The translations under genes and the position numbers were made by a program. Positions 27,757 to 33,193 of a stretch of DNA of 64,000 nucleotides are shown here, one piece after another; position 1 is the first letter of the stretch; every line of letters starts with the position of its first letter. The notes under the pieces were generated by a model. The model saw only the letters and a program-made list of their open reading frames with translations. It had not been told where the DNA came from and did no database searches. This stretch comes from an uncultured Clostridia bacterium. GTDB taxonomy: Bacteria; Bacillota; Clostridia; TANB77; CAG-508. Where the stretch lies: the NCBI GenBank assembly GCA_934120395.1, contig CAKOTZ010000006.1, positions 16,914 to 80,913 on the forward strand, in the 5' to 3' direction.

Positions 27757-27918
27757 AAATTTAGTCGTTCCGTGAGAGCGTAAATATTGTTGATTACGGC
27801 TAGAAACTTACCATACAAAGGTAAGTTTTTTGTTATTTATACTTTACAAGTTCAAGATAATCATATAAAACATATTCAATAAATTAACATAAAATTACAT
27901 AAGAAAGAGGGAGAAAAA

Positions 27919-27993
27919 TGAACTTGAAAAGTAACAAAGCGATTACACTGGTAGCATTGATAATTACAATATTTTTATTGCCTATGAAATAAG
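27919..27993 (+). pseudogene. 5' remnant of a pilin-like/FGE paralog (MNLKSNKAITLVALIITIFLLPMK*)
   Basis: It matches the first ~60 nt of the 28761 gene, and the upstream promoter/hairpin segment is duplicated at 28600-28760. Confidence 0.45.
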
Positions 27994-28760
27994 TAACAAT
28001 AATAATTTTCAATATAATGCAAGTAAAAAATTGTTTTTTAAGCAATAATTTTTATTTACTACTAGAAGTAGCTAACATTTTATGATACAATTATATTCGT
28101 TGTCGGCTCTCCACAACAGAGGGAGGTGTAACGCTTGGAGTACATAATTTCCTTTTTTGTGTCTATCGGAGTAGAAGTAGTTAGTTACTATATCTGCAAA
28201 TGGCTAGATAAACACAAGCACGACAATTAGCCAAAAAAACAGAGGAGCTGCAACTCCTCTGTTTTTTGCGTGAAACACTTGGTTATCACATAATTTCCTC
28301 TTTAGTATTTACATTATAGCATATTGTTTTTTGATTTACAAGTGTAATTATAAAATTCATGCAAAGGTAAGCCTACTTTACCGCCTACACAAAAATATAT
28401 GAAAATTTAGCCGTTCCGTTCTCCAAGGCGCTTGGACAACAGTCCTTTCAAATTTTAATGAACACATTCTAAACTTGTGGAATGAATAACTGCTTCAAGG
28501 TCGAACTCACTATTAAATTTTATATATTTTTGCCTACGGCTAGTGAAAGGTAGTTTAGTGTATTGAAATAGATACTACATTAGCGAGAAGAACAAAAAAA
28601 TACCATACAAAGGTAAGTTTTTTTCATTTGTACTTTACAAATTCAAAATTATAATATAAAATGTATTTAAATAATTAACATAGAATTACATAATATTGCT
28701 TAAAGATGGATAAGCTAAAATAGTAATTATGTTAGAAATACAAAGGAAAGAGGTATAAAA

Positions 28761-30023
28761 ATGAACTTGAAAAGTAACAAAGCAATCACATTGATAGCAT
28801 TGATAATCACAATAATTATATTGCTAATATTAGCAGGAGTGAGTTTGTCAATGGTGCTAGGAGAAAATGGTTTAATTAACAAGGCACAGTCAAGTGTAAA
28901 CAAATACAAAGAGAGTAGCGAAAATGAACAAAAGCTATTAAATAGTATAGAAAATTATATGGATTTACAACTAAAATTACCAGGAGAAAAAGTAGATTTA
29001 CCAGATGGATGGAATAAAGATACAGTAGATGCAGTATTAGATGATAAGAAAAACACAATACCAGTACCAAAGAACTTCTATTATGTAGGAGGGAATTTAG
29101 ATAATGGAGTAATTATATCGGACAATTCAGCTGATGCCTATGATGGAAAAGTAGACAAAACAACATGGGAATATACAACAAGCTTAGTAGGCAACCAATT
29201 TGTATGGATACCATGCACAGAATCTGAATATCATAAGACAGAATGGGAAAGTCAAAGTCAATATGTTTATGGTGTATACGATAAATCGGGACCAAGTCAA
29301 GATGAAATAGATAAAGTTAAAAAATATAATGGTTTTTATGTAGGAAGATATGAAGCAGGGTTAGCAGACACAATAAAAGAATATACAGGAAATCAATTAA
29401 GCGATGGTTCAAATAGTCCAGGATATAATGTAGCAGGAATACCAAAGTCAAAGGCAGGAGAATTACCATGGATATTTATTAACCAAACAAATAGTAAAGC
29501 AAATGCAGAAAAAATGTATGAAAAAAATACTTGTGTAACAAGTGGACTAGTAACAGGAACACAATGGGACGTAATGTTAAACAAATTTATTGGAACAACA
29601 AATGCTAATAGAGTAACTTTTACAGAAGCAGACATGAAAAATTCAAGTAAATGGGGAAATTGTTATAATAATGACTTGATATATACAGGAAGGTCAGCAA
29701 CATTATTTAAGAATGGAAGTAGTGAGTATATAAGCCCATGGGGAGAAAAACAAATAAATGCGGAAACAAAAACAAATACATGTACCGAATATACAACTGG
29801 TGCCAGTAAGTCTACAGAAGCATATCATATTTATGATGTAGCAGGGAATGTATGGGAATGGACGGAGGAGGTCGGACAAGGCACTGCATATCGCGTCATT
29901 CGTGGTGGTTCTTGTGGGAATGATCAAGATACTAGTCCAGCGTGTTGGCGTTATTCTACTCTCAAAGATTATGAGGTGTACTATCACATCGGATTTCGTA
30001 CTGTATTGTATATAAAAAATTAG
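28761..30023 (+). CDS. pilin-like N-terminus + FGE-sulfatase (C-type-lectin fold) domain protein; diverged DGR-target paralog
   Basis: A prepilin-like segment KAITLIALIITIIILLILAGVSL. It has GNVWEWT...AYRVIRGGSC, and its C-terminal 120 nt resemble the TR with changes at A and non-A positions. Confidence 0.75.
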   Translation: MNLKSNKAITLIALIITIIILLILAGVSLSMVLGENGLINKAQSSVNKYKESSENEQKLLNSIENYMDLQLKLPGEKVDLPDGWNKDTVDAVLDDKKNTIPVPKNFYYVGGNLDNGVIISDNSADAYDGKVDKTTWEYTTSLVGNQFVWIPCTESEYHKTEWESQSQYVYGVYDKSGPSQDEIDKVKKYNGFYVGRYEAGLADTIKEYTGNQLSDGSNSPGYNVAGIPKSKAGELPWIFINQTNSKANAEKMYEKNTCVTSGLVTGTQWDVMLNKFIGTTNANRVTFTEADMKNSSKWGNCYNNDLIYTGRSATLFKNGSSEYISPWGEKQINAETKTNTCTEYTTGASKSTEAYHIYDVAGNVWEWTEEVGQGTAYRVIRGGSCGNDQDTSPACWRYSTLKDYEVYYHIGFRTVLYIKN

Positions 30024-30148
30024 TAAATATTTCCTTCAAACACTAGACAAAATAAAAAAGTTAATATAAAATAAACACAAATATAATGTCATATAGTAGC
30101 ATAATATAGAATAATTAGGAAAATTCAAAAGAGAAGAGGAGAAAAAAC

Positions 30149-31525: not shown

Positions 31526-31891
31526 ATGGCGGATAATAAAAAAGAATTGATATTAATTCCAAAGTCAGAAAAATATATTCAATATATGATTGAAGTAATT
31601 ATGAAGTTGCCTCGTACAGAGAAATTTAGTATTGGAACCGAATATAAAACAGCAATGTATAAAATGCTTGAAAATATTATGCTTTTAAGCAAGGTGCGAG
31701 CAGAGGAAAAAATAAATTACATCAATTATATAGATGCTGAACTTAATGTTCAAAGAATTTTCTTGAGAATAATGTATAAAAATCAGTGGATAGACGAGAA
31801 ACGTTTTAAAGTAGCTTCAGATTTAATATATGAATTAGGAAAATTAGTAGGAGGTCTTTTAAAATTCTATGGCCAGAACATTAAGAAATAA
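31526..31891 (+). CDS. avd: DGR accessory variability determinant (Avd)
   Basis: A 121-aa basic helical protein located between the target and the RT and overlapping the RT start. Confidence 0.7.
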   Translation: MADNKKELILIPKSEKYIQYMIEVIMKLPRTEKFSIGTEYKTAMYKMLENIMLLSKVRAEEKINYINYIDAELNVQRIFLRIMYKNQWIDEKRFKVASDLIYELGKLVGGLLKFYGQNIKK

Positions 31892-32885
31892 ATTTGATGA
31901 GTATTTAACTTACGATAATCTAATGCGAGCTCATTTAGAGAGTAGGAAAAATAAGCGTTATAAAAAAGATATCATTTTGTTTGAAATTAAACAAGAAGAT
32001 TATATTAGATATTTATTGGAAGAACTAAAAAATGGTACATATAAGCATGGAGGCTATTCAATCTTTTATGTAAGAGAGCCTAAATTGAGAAAAGTAGAAA
32101 AATCAAGATATATAGATAGGGTCGTGCATAGATGGTTAGTAGATAATTTTTTCATTGATCTATATGTACCAACTTTTATATCAACAAGTTATGCTTGTTT
32201 AAAAGACAGGGGAACGCACAAAGCAGTATGTGATGTGCAAAAAGCAATGCAGCATTGCCTAAGAATATGGAATGAATACTATATATTAAAAATGGATGTT
32301 GCTAAATACTTTCAAAGCATTGATAAAAATATTTTGTTTAATATAATAAAGAAAAAAATTAAAGATAAAAAGGTACTATGGTTGGTAGAACAAATTATTT
32401 ATTCAAATAAGGGAGAAACGGGTATAGCCATAGGAAACTATACTTCACAGATATTTGCAAATTTATATTTAAATGAAGTAGATCAATATATAAAAAAAGA
32501 ATTGAAGGTTAAATATTATTTTAGGTATATGGATGATTCGATAATTCTTGTAAAAACTAAAAATGAGGCAAAATTAATATTAGAAAAAATAAGACAATTC
32601 TTAAGGGAAAATTTAAAATTAGAGTTAAACTCTAAAACTCAAATATTTAAGAATAAACAAGGTGTTAATTTTTGTGGATACAAAATTAATGAATACAGAA
32701 TGAAGGTAAGAGACAGAGGAAAGAAGAAACTTAAAAAAAAGATAAAAATATTAAAAGAAAATGTGAAAAATGGTAAAATGAGTAGTAAAGAGGCTAAGTT
32801 ATACCTGTGTGGGCATGTTGGATATATTAAATATGCAGATGTTCACAATTTAACTAGCAAGCTGTTTTATTTGCCGGAAGAATAA
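31869..32885 (+). CDS. DGR reverse transcriptase
   Basis: RT motifs including YMDD (FRYMDDSII) and the DGR-specific IGxxxSQ (IGNYTSQ). Confidence 0.9.
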   Translation: MARTLRNKFDEYLTYDNLMRAHLESRKNKRYKKDIILFEIKQEDYIRYLLEELKNGTYKHGGYSIFYVREPKLRKVEKSRYIDRVVHRWLVDNFFIDLYVPTFISTSYACLKDRGTHKAVCDVQKAMQHCLRIWNEYYILKMDVAKYFQSIDKNILFNIIKKKIKDKKVLWLVEQIIYSNKGETGIAIGNYTSQIFANLYLNEVDQYIKKELKVKYYFRYMDDSIILVKTKNEAKLILEKIRQFLRENLKLELNSKTQIFKNKQGVNFCGYKINEYRMKVRDRGKKKLKKKIKILKENVKNGKMSSKEAKLYLCGHVGYIKYADVHNLTSKLFYLPEE

Positions 32886-32914
32886 TAATAACATAGGGAT
32901 AAATCAGATGGCGG

Positions 32915-33032
32915 GCGTCATTCGTGGCGGTTCTTGCAATAATGCTTCAGGTTCTAACCCAGCATGCTACCGCAATGGTAACAACTCTGTTTCCAATGTG
33001 AACTATAACATCGGGTTCCGTGCCGTACTCTA
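32915..33032 (+). repeat. DGR template repeat (TR)
   Basis: A non-coding copy of the target C-terminus placed 3' of the RT. It is rich in AAY triplets, and the VR differs from it only at adenines. Confidence 0.85.
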
Positions 33033-33193
33033 ATATTATTCGAGATTGTGTGTTTTACGGAATGCATACAGTGAAGTATTAGATATTAAAGAGGTTTATT
33101 CCTTCCTACTTTAGGTAAAAATGAATCAATAAAACATGTATTGGTAGTAAATTTACGAAGATACGTGTTTTATGCTATATATAAGGTGAAAAT

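What the first reader, a model, noticed from the sequence alone, without database searches (positions are those of the whole stretch)
27900..33040. Complete diversity-generating retroelement: two pilin-like FGE-domain targets, avd, RT, then TR 3' of the RT
The RT carries YMDD and the DGR-specific IGNYTSQ motif, and a 121-aa Avd-like ORF overlaps its start. A non-coding 118-bp template repeat at 32915-33032 matches the 3' end of gene 30149-31414. All 12 differences between that VR and the TR fall on TR adenines (A to C, G or T), and there are none at C, G or T until the terminal few bases. The TR is rich in AAY triplets. The variable codons sit in the C-terminal FGE-sulfatase (C-type-lectin fold) domain of a protein whose N-terminus resembles a type IV prepilin-like TM segment (KG|ITLVALIIT...) but lacks Glu5.
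Basis: seen in the sequence. Interest (0 to 1): 0.85.

Follow-up and report, generated by a model that had tools for sequence, protein, structure and literature searches.

The report
Active DGR in a gut Clostridia genome

Summary
TR 32915-33032 and the 3' end of gene 30149-31414 differ at 13 of 118 positions, 12 of them TR adenines (P = 2e-8).

Six same-species contigs carry an identical TR. Four strain variants of the target differ almost only in adenine-containing VR codons. The element is therefore a real DGR and has been active recently.

The RT is most similar to the Bordetella phage BPP-1 bRT. The ORF overlapping its start is an Avd. The target C-terminus has an FGE/C-type-lectin fold.

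- **Only one target.** The upstream paralogue 28761-30023 differs from the TR at all four bases and is not hypervariable between strains. It is absent from a sister strain.
- **The cassette runs past 33040.** It also includes the Rfam RT-14 RNA (33028-33173), which begins at the TR 3' end. Next come an SSB-like OB-fold gene (33194-33472) and a MutS-domain-I "MSL" accessory gene (33485-33922, minus strand).
- **The "pilin-like" N-terminus is a leader module, not a pilin.** It is a roughly 65-residue module found on more than 21,000 protein clusters.

This is a new member of a known kind. The SSB-like gene is present in 77 of 80 loci of this RT clade and in 0 of 80 viral DGR loci. It is the one possibly new element.

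The parts
27918..27983 (+). Truncated remnant of a target-type gene (MNLKSNKAITLVALIITIFLLPMK*), with its own copy of the upstream promoter/RBS region
   Evidence: Direct repeat 27882-27981 vs 28725-28824 is 84% identical. The sequence was read. The same segment is also present in sister strain L088.
28761..30023 (+). Non-diversified paralogue of the target (420 aa): same leader and FGE/CLec domain, but not a current VR
   Evidence: Its C-terminal 118 nt differ from the TR at 40 positions across all four bases. Its IMH-equivalent has 6 mismatches in 23 nt. Against its 96%-identical relative P0030 it shows 15 differences, only 1 in the VR-equivalent. The segment 28371-30010 is absent from strain L088.
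30149..31414 (+). DGR target gene (421 aa): N-terminal TM leader (aa 4-33), helical stalk (38-68), FGE-sulfatase/C-type-lectin-fold domain
   Evidence: Pfam FGE-sulfatase scores 25.8 bits against a cutoff of 23.3. The AF2 model has pLDDT 84. Foldseek hits are FGE, EgtB, and the DGR variable proteins TvpA, Mtd and TaqVP.
31287..31404 (+). Variable repeat (VR), codons 380-419 of the target
   Evidence: 12 of 13 mismatches to the TR fall on TR adenines. Four strain variants differ at 14 VR columns.
31383..31404 (+). IMH-like invariant GC-rich 3' end of the VR (TCGGGTTCCGTGCCGTACTTTA). It differs from the TR counterpart (IMH*, 33011-33032) only by T/C at 31402/33030
   Evidence: The same junction (TR ...ACTCTAATA vs VR ...ACTTTA) is seen in nearly all of the 53 related TR/VR pairs.
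31526..31891 (+). avd (121 aa, pI 9.5)
   Evidence: Pfam bAvd scores 63.4 bits against a cutoff of 40. NCBIfam DivGenRetAVD scores 75 bits, just under its cutoff of 80. PHROG 'Avd protein of DGR' hits at 5e-18.
31869..32885 (+). DGR reverse transcriptase (338 aa) with IGNYTSQ and YMDD
   Evidence: The best solved-structure match is 8ub7 (E 1.8e-45, full length), ahead of group II intron RTs (1e-19) and retron RTs (1e-14). The 8ub7 sequence is BPP-1 brt. PHROG_1423 hits at 3e-103.
32915..33032 (+). Template repeat (TR), non-coding, 27 A, 47% GC in a 29% GC genome
   Evidence: The TR is 100% identical in six same-species contigs.
33028..33173 (+). RT-14 structured RNA (Rfam RF02921), overlapping the last 5 nt of the TR. 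Presumed equivalent of the BPP-1 'Sp' priming element
   Evidence: It scores 122.9 bits against a gathering score of 48.1. It starts at the TR 3' end in 7 of 7 related loci tested (compared with the TR ends).
33194..33472 (+). Small SSB-like OB-fold protein (92 aa, no acidic tail), a candidate DGR accessory factor
   Evidence: An HMM finds it in 77 of 80 clade loci and 0 of 80 viral DGR loci. The AF2 model has pLDDT 89. Foldseek top hits are bacterial SSB and PriB (TM about 0.8, prob 1.0). The profile hits SSB in PDB at E 0.008. Family members carry PF00436. An RBS (AAGGTGA) lies upstream.
33485..33922 (-). MSL (MutS-domain-I-only) accessory gene. The likely start is at 33892 (135 aa)
   Evidence: Pfam MutS_I scores 45 bits against a cutoff of 20.6. 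The profile matches MutS domain I at 5e-7. It is present in 67 of 80 clade loci. MSL is a described DGR accessory gene (PMC5758913). The 135-aa gene call comes from sister contigs.

Best explanation
This is an intact, chromosomal (not phage-borne) DGR of an uncultured low-GC gut Clostridia bacterium. It diversifies the last ~32 codons of one surface-displayed lectin-fold protein.

**Shown here**
- The cassette is target(VR) - avd - RT - TR - RT-14 RNA - SSB-like gene, with a convergent MSL gene.
- TR-to-VR differences are adenine-specific.
- Strains share an identical TR but carry different VRs.

**Inferred from the BPP-1 paradigm**
1. The avd-RT-TR-RT-14 transcript is bound by the RT-Avd complex.
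2. The structured RT-14 element 3' of the TR positions and primes cDNA synthesis.
3. The RT copies the TR and misincorporates opposite its 25 variable adenines. This allows about 4.5e15 DNA variants and about 1e13 peptide variants.
4. The cDNA replaces the VR. It is guided by the invariant GC-rich IMH, whose single C/T difference from the TR keeps transfer one-way.

**Further inference, untested**
- The SSB-like protein binds the single-stranded cDNA.
- MSL binds the mismatched cDNA:VR heteroduplex. MSL keeps the mismatch-wedging Phe of MutS but has lost the Glu.
- Either could help the mutagenised strand escape degradation or repair.

The upstream paralogue is a copy outside the reach of the TR.
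For: **TR/VR signature**
- 12 of 13 TR/VR mismatches fall on A, P = 2.3e-8.
- The TR is identical in six same-species contigs. The L088 VR differs from the window VR, with 10 of its 13 mismatches at TR adenines.
- Among four strain variants, 14 of 15 variable columns are in aa 382-412 and 13 are in A-codons.
- Across 53 related loci, 975 of 1059 TR/VR mismatches are at A. Most of the remainder is one conserved C/T junction difference.

**Proteins and RNA**
- The RT's best match is BPP-1 bRT, with motifs conserved.
- Avd is supported.
- The CLec/FGE fold matches TvpA, Mtd and TaqVP.
- RT-14 scores 122.9 bits and abuts the TR in 7 of 7 other loci.
- MSL is a published accessory gene and is present in 67 of 80 clade loci.
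- The SSB-like gene is in 77 of 80 clade loci and 0 of 80 viral DGR loci. Its position and strand vary between loci.
- Family members picked by the OB profile alone again sit beside MSL-Avd-RT.
- The SSB fold is supported.

**Genomic context**
- Flanking genes are cellular.
- No viral contig or phage record carries an RT more than 40% identical.
Against: - No expression, cDNA or within-sample read data were available, so present-day activity is inferred from between-strain differences.
- L088 has 3 non-A differences (C, G, and the junction C), so not every change is adenine-directed.
- NCBIfam's Avd model scores 75, just below its cutoff of 80.
- No significant hairpin follows the VR (z = -0.63), unlike BPP-1.
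- The roles of RT-14, the SSB-like protein and MSL rest on position, fold and co-occurrence only.
- The HMMs used for the 77/80 and 67/80 counts were built from a subset of the same loci.
- The window's own OB protein does not reach any Pfam threshold (tRNA_anti-codon 22 bits against 27).
Confidence: 0.9

Rival explanations
1. Both tandem paralogues (28761-30023 and 30149-31414) are live targets of the one TR.
For: Both genes share the leader, the FGE domain and a C-terminus that aligns with the TR (65% identity). About 15% of DGRs have multiple targets (PMC5758913).
Against: - Paralogue A has 40 mismatches to the TR, only 12 at A, which is close to the chance expectation of about 9.
- Its IMH-equivalent carries 6 mismatches in 23 nt.
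- Against its 96%-identical relative, only 1 of 15 differences lies in the VR-equivalent.
- In tandem arrays of 2-6 copies elsewhere, only the copy next to avd resembles the TR.
- A frozen-paralogue cluster varies across its whole length rather than in the VR-equivalent.
Confidence: 0.04
2. The cassette is a fossil. The A-biased differences record past activity, but the element no longer homes.
For: No expression or within-population read data were examined. Related loci do decay: L091 and L092 have a 202-aa RT fragment, and L097 has lost avd-RT-TR.
Against: - All ORFs are intact and the catalytic YMDD is present.
- The TR is perfectly conserved in six contigs, whereas the surrounding DNA is about 98% identical.
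- Four strains that are about 97% identical overall each carry a different VR. That requires homing since their very recent divergence.
Confidence: 0.08
3. It is a prophage DGR that switches phage receptor tropism, as in BPP-1.
For: The RT's nearest solved relative is a phage enzyme. Some proteins sharing the N-terminal leader carry phage tail-collar or Gp10_C domains.
Against: - The target and its neighbours give no PHROG structural hits.
- The flanks are MazEF, PBP5-type peptidase, tRNAs, an AAA_14 ATPase and a T4SS-like cluster.
- Synteny is kept in strain L088.
- The best viral-contig RT is 39% identical, against 59-73% in cellular MAGs.
Confidence: 0.03
4. The target is a true type IV (pseudo)pilin. 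It would be cleaved after Gly8 by a prepilin peptidase and placed at a pilus tip. Subunits lacking Glu5, such as GspK, sit at the tip, so this would give a DGR-diversified pilus-tip adhesin.
For: The N-terminus follows K-G|I-T-L-x-x-L...ILAG and gives a weak N_methyl hit (15.9 bits). Five of 68 leader-sharing proteins reach E<0.001 for N_methyl. DGR-diversified pilus-tip adhesins exist in Bacteroides type V pili (bioRxiv 2024.11.15.621889).
Against: - The score is below the Pfam threshold of 21.2, and there is no NCBIfam pilin hit.
- Glu5 is absent across the family, and the -1 residue is Ala in the closest paralogues.
- The AF2 model shows a TM helix, a break, then a second helix. No alpha/beta pilin domain is present.
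- No pilus ATPase, platform or peptidase gene lies in the 64-kb window.
- The simpler reading is a signal-anchor plus stalk.
Confidence: 0.2
5. The SSB-like gene is an unrelated neighbour. It would be conserved only because the 80 loci are from related genomes.
For: All 80 loci come from one RT clade in related uncultured Clostridia. Its function is untested, and its pI is near neutral and variable.
Against: - It stays beside the DGR while the flanking genes differ from locus to locus.
- It occurs downstream on the + strand, downstream on the - strand next to MSL, or upstream of avd.
- The genomes keep a separate canonical ssb in the rpsF-ssb-rpsR operon.
- It begins a median of 373 nt after the RT stop, directly after TR and RT-14.
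Confidence: 0.08

Closest known systems
Bordetella phage BPP-1 DGR (mtd-avd-TR-brt)
   Same: - Adenine-specific TR-to-VR transfer.
- An Avd plus an RT with IGxxxSQ and YMDD. The RT aligns to bRT along its full length at E 1.8e-45.
- The VR lies at the C-terminus of a C-type-lectin fold.
- A GC-rich IMH with a TR/VR discriminator.
- A structured RNA 3' of the TR.
   Different: - The gene order here is avd-RT-TR, with the TR after the RT.
- The 3' RNA is Rfam RT-14, not RT-10/Sp.
- The element is chromosomal and the target is a membrane-anchored cell protein, not a tail fibre.
- MSL and an SSB-like gene are present.
- No significant hairpin follows the VR.
Treponema denticola TvpA-type targets (Wu et al. 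2018, category 'b': CLec VR inside a larger FGE-sulfatase domain)
   Same: The target has an FGE-sulfatase-type CLec domain with a C-terminal VR and is displayed on the cell surface. TvpA (2y3c) is among the fold hits (prob 0.96).
   Different: TvpA is a lipoprotein and its DGR uses HRDC. Here the anchor is a pilin-like TM leader plus a helical stalk, and the accessory genes are avd, MSL and the SSB-like gene.
MSL-containing DGRs (Wu et al. 2018 'Architecture D'; Legionella; Bacteroides Bfr/Bth/Bun of Macadangdang et al.)
   Same: A small MutS-domain-I-only protein is encoded beside avd and the RT.
   Different: This clade additionally carries the SSB-like OB gene and the RT-14 RNA. In this window MSL is downstream on the opposite strand, a minority arrangement (3 of 44 fully flanked loci).
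Bacterial SSB / PriB OB-fold proteins
   Same: The fold matches (TM about 0.8). The N-terminal MNxxxLxGxx motif is shared. An aromatic residue (Tyr46) occupies the position aligned with the Phe of ..AFRKLAE.. in SSB chain 7r4w.
   Different: It is only 80-92 aa and lacks the disordered acidic C-terminal tail. It is very divergent in sequence (12-20% identity). It is encoded with a retroelement rather than in rpsF-ssb-rpsR.

Membership tests
Diversity-generating retroelement | TR/VR repeat pair whose differences fall almost only on TR adenines | tested here: met
   12 of 13 mismatches are at A, P = 2.3e-8. Across 53 related loci, 975 of 1059 are at A.
Diversity-generating retroelement | RT of the DGR type (motif 4 [I/L]GxxxSQ, YxDD), closer to DGR RTs than to group II intron or retron RTs | tested here: met
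   IGNYTSQ and YMDD align with BPP-1 bRT IGSLTSQ and YMDD. bRT scores E 1.8e-45, against 2.7e-19 for the best group II intron RT and 2.9e-14 for the best retron RT. No formal phylogeny was run.
Diversity-generating retroelement | VR at the end of a target ORF in a variation-tolerant (CLec or Ig) fold | tested here: met
   The VR is codons 380-419 of 421. Pfam FGE-sulfatase hits the target. Foldseek hits are FGE, TvpA, Mtd and TaqVP.
Diversity-generating retroelement | Avd or another accessory protein next to the RT | tested here: met
   bAvd scores 63.4 bits, above its cutoff of 40. PHROG Avd hits. The NCBIfam equivalog scores 75 against a cutoff of 80.
Diversity-generating retroelement | IMH/IMH* at the 3' end of VR/TR giving directionality | tested here: inconclusive
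   A 20-nt invariant GC-rich segment and a clade-wide C(TR)/T(VR) junction difference are present. Their function cannot be tested in silico.
Diversity-generating retroelement | Ongoing mutagenic homing (hypervariable VR, constant TR in populations) | tested here: met
   The TR is identical in 6 contigs. Four strain variants differ at 14 VR columns and 1 non-VR column. Within-sample reads were not available.
Type IV pilin / class III signal peptide protein | N-terminal methylation motif G|F-x-x-x-E scoring above curated thresholds, with Glu5 | tested here: not met
   N_methyl scores 15.9 bits against a cutoff of 21.2. There is no NCBIfam pilin hit. Position +5 is Ala, Ser or Val in all 50 aligned family members.
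Type IV pilin / class III signal peptide protein | Alpha1 helix packed on a beta-sheet (pilin fold), with pilus assembly genes nearby | tested here: not met
   The model has helix 4-33, a break, helix 38-68, a linker, then the FGE domain. No PilB, PilC or PilD-type genes are in the window. The rest of the genome was not available.
MSL (MutS-like DGR accessory protein) | Small protein made of MutS domain I, encoded within a DGR cassette that also has avd | tested here: met
   MutS_I scores 45 bits against a cutoff of 20.6. The profile matches Taq and E. coli MutS residues about 13-100. It is 135-145 aa and is present in 67 of 80 clade loci. The definition is from PMC5758913.
RT-14 RNA (Rfam RF02921) | Covariance-model score above Rfam's gathering threshold, next to an RT gene | tested here: met
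   It scores 122.9 bits against 48.1, matching the full model length 1-144. The same is true in 7 of 7 related loci.
SSB family (PF00436) | OB fold of SSB type, sequence match to PF00436, and a C-terminal acidic protein-interaction tail | tested here: inconclusive
   The fold criterion is met. The family profile hits SSB weakly (E 0.008) and many relatives carry PF00436. The window protein itself reaches no Pfam threshold, and no tail is present in its 92 aa.

The most novel reading that the evidence does not exclude
The ~85-aa SSB-like OB-fold protein encoded directly after the TR and RT-14 RNA is a previously undescribed DGR accessory factor, specific to this Clostridia RT clade. On this reading it handles the single-stranded, adenine-mutagenised cDNA. 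The MutS-domain-I protein MSL would handle the resulting mismatched heteroduplex. Together they would point to an ssDNA-annealing, mismatch-shielding route for the still unresolved cDNA-integration step. RT-14 would then be this clade's counterpart of the BPP-1 Sp priming RNA.
Probability: 0.45. Interest if true: 0.6.

Novelty: new member of a known kind. Interest (0 to 1): 0.4.

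Why it matters
The locus is a clean natural example of a cellular DGR for which strain-level evidence of activity can be read from public assemblies.

Its wider value lies in three points:
- It ties an orphan Rfam motif (RT-14) to the position immediately 3' of a DGR template.
- It shows that in tandem arrays of target paralogues only the avd-proximal copy is diversified, so the other copies behave as frozen variants.
- It flags a conserved SSB-like partner of MSL. How DGR cDNA enters the VR is the main open mechanistic question for these elements. 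A clade that carries its own ssDNA-binding and mismatch-binding proteins gives concrete candidates to test.

The target's N-terminal leader is shared by more than 21,000 protein clusters that carry adhesin-like domains. It may mark a general surface-display route in gut Firmicutes.

Tried and rejected
- **Metagenome scan for VR variants.** I scanned JGI metagenome contigs with the TR pattern, using N at every A. It gave 0 hits. Population evidence came instead from 90% cluster members.
- **Hairpin after the VR, as in BPP-1.** Only a 4-bp stem is present, z = -0.63, so no claim is made.
- **Promoter and terminator scan of 27700-34200.** Counts equal the shuffle expectation, so the scan is uninformative.
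- **P0196 as an MSL-OB fusion.** I first read it as Rosetta-stone evidence. Its contig shows target - fusion with no avd, RT or TR, so it is a deletion remnant.
- **Link between the DGR and the upstream T4SS-like cluster.** Only one other locus (L025) has these genes nearby, so the link was rejected as a conserved association.
- **Phage origin.** Rejected.
- **NCBIfam classification of the RT.** NCBIfam has no DGR-RT model. It returned only sub-threshold group II, Drt and retron hits, so classification rests on the PDB and PHROG comparisons.
- **Exact look-up of paralogue A.** It was not in the collection, so its nearest relative P0030 was used instead.
- **Literature searches.** Searches for DGR with OB-fold, SSB, or single-stranded DNA-binding protein found nothing relevant. 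The supplements of Wu et al., which list candidate accessory genes PAG1-4, are not held. Prior mention there cannot be excluded.
- **Small ORF 28117-28230.** It gave no Pfam hit.

Full report
**1. The observation**

There are two paralogous genes (28761-30023 and 30149-31414). A 121-aa ORF (31526-31891) overlaps by 23 nt the start of a 338-aa RT (31869-32885). A 118-nt non-coding repeat at 32915-33032 matches 31287-31404.

The ungapped comparison gives 13 mismatches. Twelve are at TR adenines (A>T 5, A>C 4, A>G 3). One is C>T at 33030, three bases from the end. With 27 A in 118 nt, the chance of at least 12 of 13 on A is 2.3e-8. In frame, the TR has 9 AAY codons. Its 25 variable adenines allow about 4.5e15 DNA variants and about 1e13 peptide variants.

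**2. The core parts are DGR parts**

- **RT.** It matches PDB 8ub7 over its full length at E 1.8e-45. The next hits are group II intron RTs (2.7e-19) and retron RTs (2.9e-14). IGNYTSQ aligns with IGSLTSQ, and YMDD aligns with YMDD. The 8ub7 sequence is 100% identical to brt of Bordetella phage BPP-1. PHROG_1423 (reverse transcriptase) hits at 3e-103.
- **Avd.** The small ORF is an Avd. Pfam bAvd scores 63.4 bits against 40, and the PHROG 'Avd protein of DGR' hits. NCBIfam DivGenRetAVD scores 75, just under its cutoff of 80.
- **Target fold.** The target carries Pfam FGE-sulfatase at its C-terminus. An AlphaFold model built on 50 homologues (pLDDT 84) finds FGE and EgtB enzymes by Foldseek. It also finds the DGR variable proteins TvpA, Mtd and TaqVP.

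**3. Evidence of activity in populations**

Six independent same-species contigs carry a TR identical to the window's. In one of them (L088) the surrounding DNA is about 98% identical. Its VR nevertheless differs from the shared TR at 10 adenines plus 3 other positions, and it differs from the window's VR.

The 90% cluster of the target holds four variants from four assemblies. Within-sample reads were not available.

**4. A large clade with the same design**

The RT retrieved 80 loci from uncultured gut Clostridia MAGs (59-73% identity). Fifty-three of them contain an A-biased repeat pair in the order target-avd-RT-TR. Pooled, 975 of 1059 mismatches are at TR adenines.

Most of the 61 mismatches at C are a single conserved difference at the junction: TR ...ACTCTAATA against VR ...ACTTTA. 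It follows roughly 20 invariant GC-rich bases. I read this as IMH* against IMH.

No viral contig or phage record has an RT more than 40% identical. The window's flanks are cellular genes. The clade is therefore cellular, not phage-borne.

**5. Only one paralogue is a target**

- The C-terminus of 28761-30023 differs from the TR at 40 of 118 positions. Only 12 are at A, and about 9 would be expected by chance. Its IMH-equivalent has 6 mismatches in 23 nt.
- Against its 96%-identical relative P0030 it has 15 differences, one of them in the VR-equivalent. The real target differs from its 97%-identical relative P0001 at 13 positions, 12 of them in the VR.
- Strain L088 lacks the segment 28371-30010 altogether.
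- Elsewhere, arrays of two to six paralogues precede the DGR (L089, L090). Only the copy next to avd keeps the TR-like, GC-rich end. A cluster of one such upstream paralogue varies all along its length, with only one variable column in the VR-equivalent.

The upstream copies behave as frozen paralogues. A 22-codon remnant of yet another copy sits at 27918-27983.

**6. The cassette extends beyond 33040**

- **RT-14 RNA.** Rfam RT-14 (RF02921) matches 33028-33173 at 122.9 bits against a gathering score of 48.1. It overlaps the last 5 nt of the TR. In 7 of 7 related loci tested it starts at the TR 3' end. Weinberg et al. placed only RT-10 in a DGR (BPP-1) and speculated that other RT motifs belong to DGRs (PMC5737381). 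Here RT-14 occupies the position of the BPP-1 spacer RNA, 3' of the template.
- **SSB-like gene.** Twenty-one bases after RT-14, behind an AAGGTGA ribosome-binding site, lies a 92-aa ORF (33194-33472). Its model (pLDDT 89) matches bacterial SSB and PriB OB folds (TM about 0.8, prob 1.0). A family profile hits SSB sequences (E 0.008). Many relatives carry PF00436.
- **MSL.** Convergent with the SSB-like gene is a MutS-domain-I-only gene (33485-33922). This is MSL, a published DGR accessory gene (PMC5758913; bioRxiv 2024.11.15.621889). It keeps the G-x-F-Y mismatch wedge but has Ile in place of the Glu.

**7. Is the SSB-like gene part of the element?**

- Profile HMMs find it in 77 of 80 clade loci, and MSL in 67 of 80. 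Neither is found in 80 viral DGR loci. The HMMs were built from a subset of the cellular loci.
- It usually begins about 373 nt after the RT stop. It also occurs on the opposite strand beside MSL, or upstream of avd, while the flanking genes change from locus to locus.
- Family members chosen by the OB profile alone again lie beside MSL-Avd-RT. One such genome also has a canonical ssb in rpsF-ssb-rpsR.
- One apparent MSL-OB fusion (P0196) is a deletion that removed avd-RT-TR, so it is not evidence.
- Searches of the held literature for DGR with OB-fold or SSB found nothing. The supplements of Wu et al. were not available.

I consider the association real. Its function (binding the cDNA) is an inference.

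**8. The 'pilin-like' N-terminus**

The motif K-G|I-T-L-V-A-L...ILAG is conserved across the family, with Thr+2 invariant. Position +5 is never Glu, and the -1 residue is Ala in the closest paralogues. Pfam N_methyl scores 15.9 bits against 21.2, and NCBIfam gives no pilin hit. The model shows a TM helix (4-33), a conserved G-x-N-G break, a second helix (38-68), a linker and then the lectin-fold domain. No pilin fold is present.

A full HMMER scan with residues 1-70 finds 21,058 cluster representatives (E <= 0.001) of 68-706 aa, nearly all matching at or within a few dozen residues of their N-terminus. A sample of 68 carries FGE, BspA-LRR, GLUG, tail-collar, Big_2, Gp10_C or GDSL domains. This is a general leader for surface proteins. 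It may derive from a class III signal, but membership of the type IV pilins was tested and not met. No pilus machinery lies in the window. A tip-pilin role remains possible (about 0.2).

**9. Mechanism**

*Shown:*
- the cassette anatomy;
- adenine-specific, one-way TR-to-VR information flow;
- a constant TR with variable VRs between strains;
- restriction of diversification to one paralogue.

*Inferred from BPP-1:*
- RT-Avd binds the TR-RT-14 RNA.
- RT-14 positions and primes cDNA synthesis.
- Adenines are miscopied.
- The cDNA replaces the VR, guided by the IMH.

*Inferred from fold and linkage only:*
- The SSB-like protein coats the cDNA.
- MSL engages the heteroduplex.

**10. Verdict**

This is a genuine DGR and a new member of a known kind, from a clade already represented in Rfam by its RNA motif and in the literature by MSL. 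The count of targets and the boundaries are wrong. The SSB-like accessory gene and the assignment of RT-14 to the TR 3' end are the modestly new points.

Noticed in passing
window 11289-25327 (+): A T4SS-like gene cluster sits between housekeeping genes. It has four VirB2/TrbC-type 'T4SS_pilin' genes (11289, 11688, 12756, 17057), a VirB4/TraG P-loop ATPase (14877-16850) and an 878-aa M23/Hydrolase_2 cell-wall hydrolase (20533-23169). Several large ORFs in it have no Pfam or PHROG hit. No relaxase was seen. Only one other DGR locus (L025) has these genes nearby.
   Followed up: partly
window 28117-28230 (+), terminator-like hairpin about 28236-28270: A 31-codon hydrophobic ORF with a basic tail (M/LEYIISFFVSIGVEVVSYYICKWLDKHKHDN) lies behind a GGGAGG ribosome-binding site and is followed by a GC-rich hairpin plus T-run. 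It looks like a small membrane toxin. There is no Pfam hit. It lies between the remnant and the first paralogue, and only its 3' part (window 28172 onward) aligns to strain L088.
   Followed up: partly
window 27732-27981 vs 28378-28824; indel 28371-30010 relative to L088: The 3' end of the AAA_14/DUF4143 gene is duplicated ahead of paralogue A (93% identical). The downstream terminator/promoter region and the first ~20 codons of a target-type gene are duplicated too (83-84%). This points to recombination between tandem target copies as the source of gain and loss of paralogues between strains.
   Followed up: partly
L090 (six paralogues, 48-10643) and L089: Arrays of up to six tandem target paralogues occur upstream of the DGR in related genomes. 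In L090 a ToxN_toxin gene (6626-7165) is embedded in the array. Only the last copy keeps a TR-like end.
   Followed up: partly
window 30149-30358 (leader, aa 1-70): The ~65-aa leader (TM helix plus amphipathic helix, consensus KGITLVALVITIIVLLILAGVSI..VLG.NGLI.KA...NEQ) occurs at or near the N-terminus of more than 21,000 protein clusters. Their C-terminal domains are diverse and adhesin-like or phage-RBP-like. I found no description of it as a family.
   Followed up: partly
L097 5483-6007; L091 5021-5629: These are decayed relatives of the cassette. L097 has an in-frame MSL::SSB-like fusion caused by deletion of avd-RT-TR. L091 and L092 have a 202-aa RT fragment.
   Followed up: yes
window 34122-34687 (+): A MazE/MazF (PemK) toxin-antitoxin pair lies immediately downstream of MSL. 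It is conserved at the same place in the same-species contigs.
   Followed up: no
window 34745-35170 and 35226-35996 (+): A D-Ala-D-Ala carboxypeptidase (Peptidase_S11/PBP5_C) is split into two ORFs (141 and 256 aa). The same split is present in strain L088, so it is not a sequencing error of this window.
   Followed up: no
window 36573-40721 (+): A 1382-aa surface protein with a thioester (TED) domain and DUF11 repeats, probably a covalent adhesin, lies just past tRNA-Cys and tRNA-Gly (36061-36282, minus strand).
   Followed up: no
window 57005-57709 (+) and 62790-63953 (-): A 234-aa protein has an SSB domain only in its C-terminal half. A TraG-D_C (coupling-protein-like) gene lies nearby. 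This may be part of a second mobile element at the far end of the window.
   Followed up: no
window 32915-33032 and 31287-31404: The TR (47% GC) and VR (53% GC) stand out from the 29% GC genome. The frozen paralogue's equivalent stretch has drifted to 42% GC, and upstream copies in L090 are visibly more AT-rich. Loss of TR-driven renewal appears to let the segment decay towards genomic composition.
   Followed up: partly
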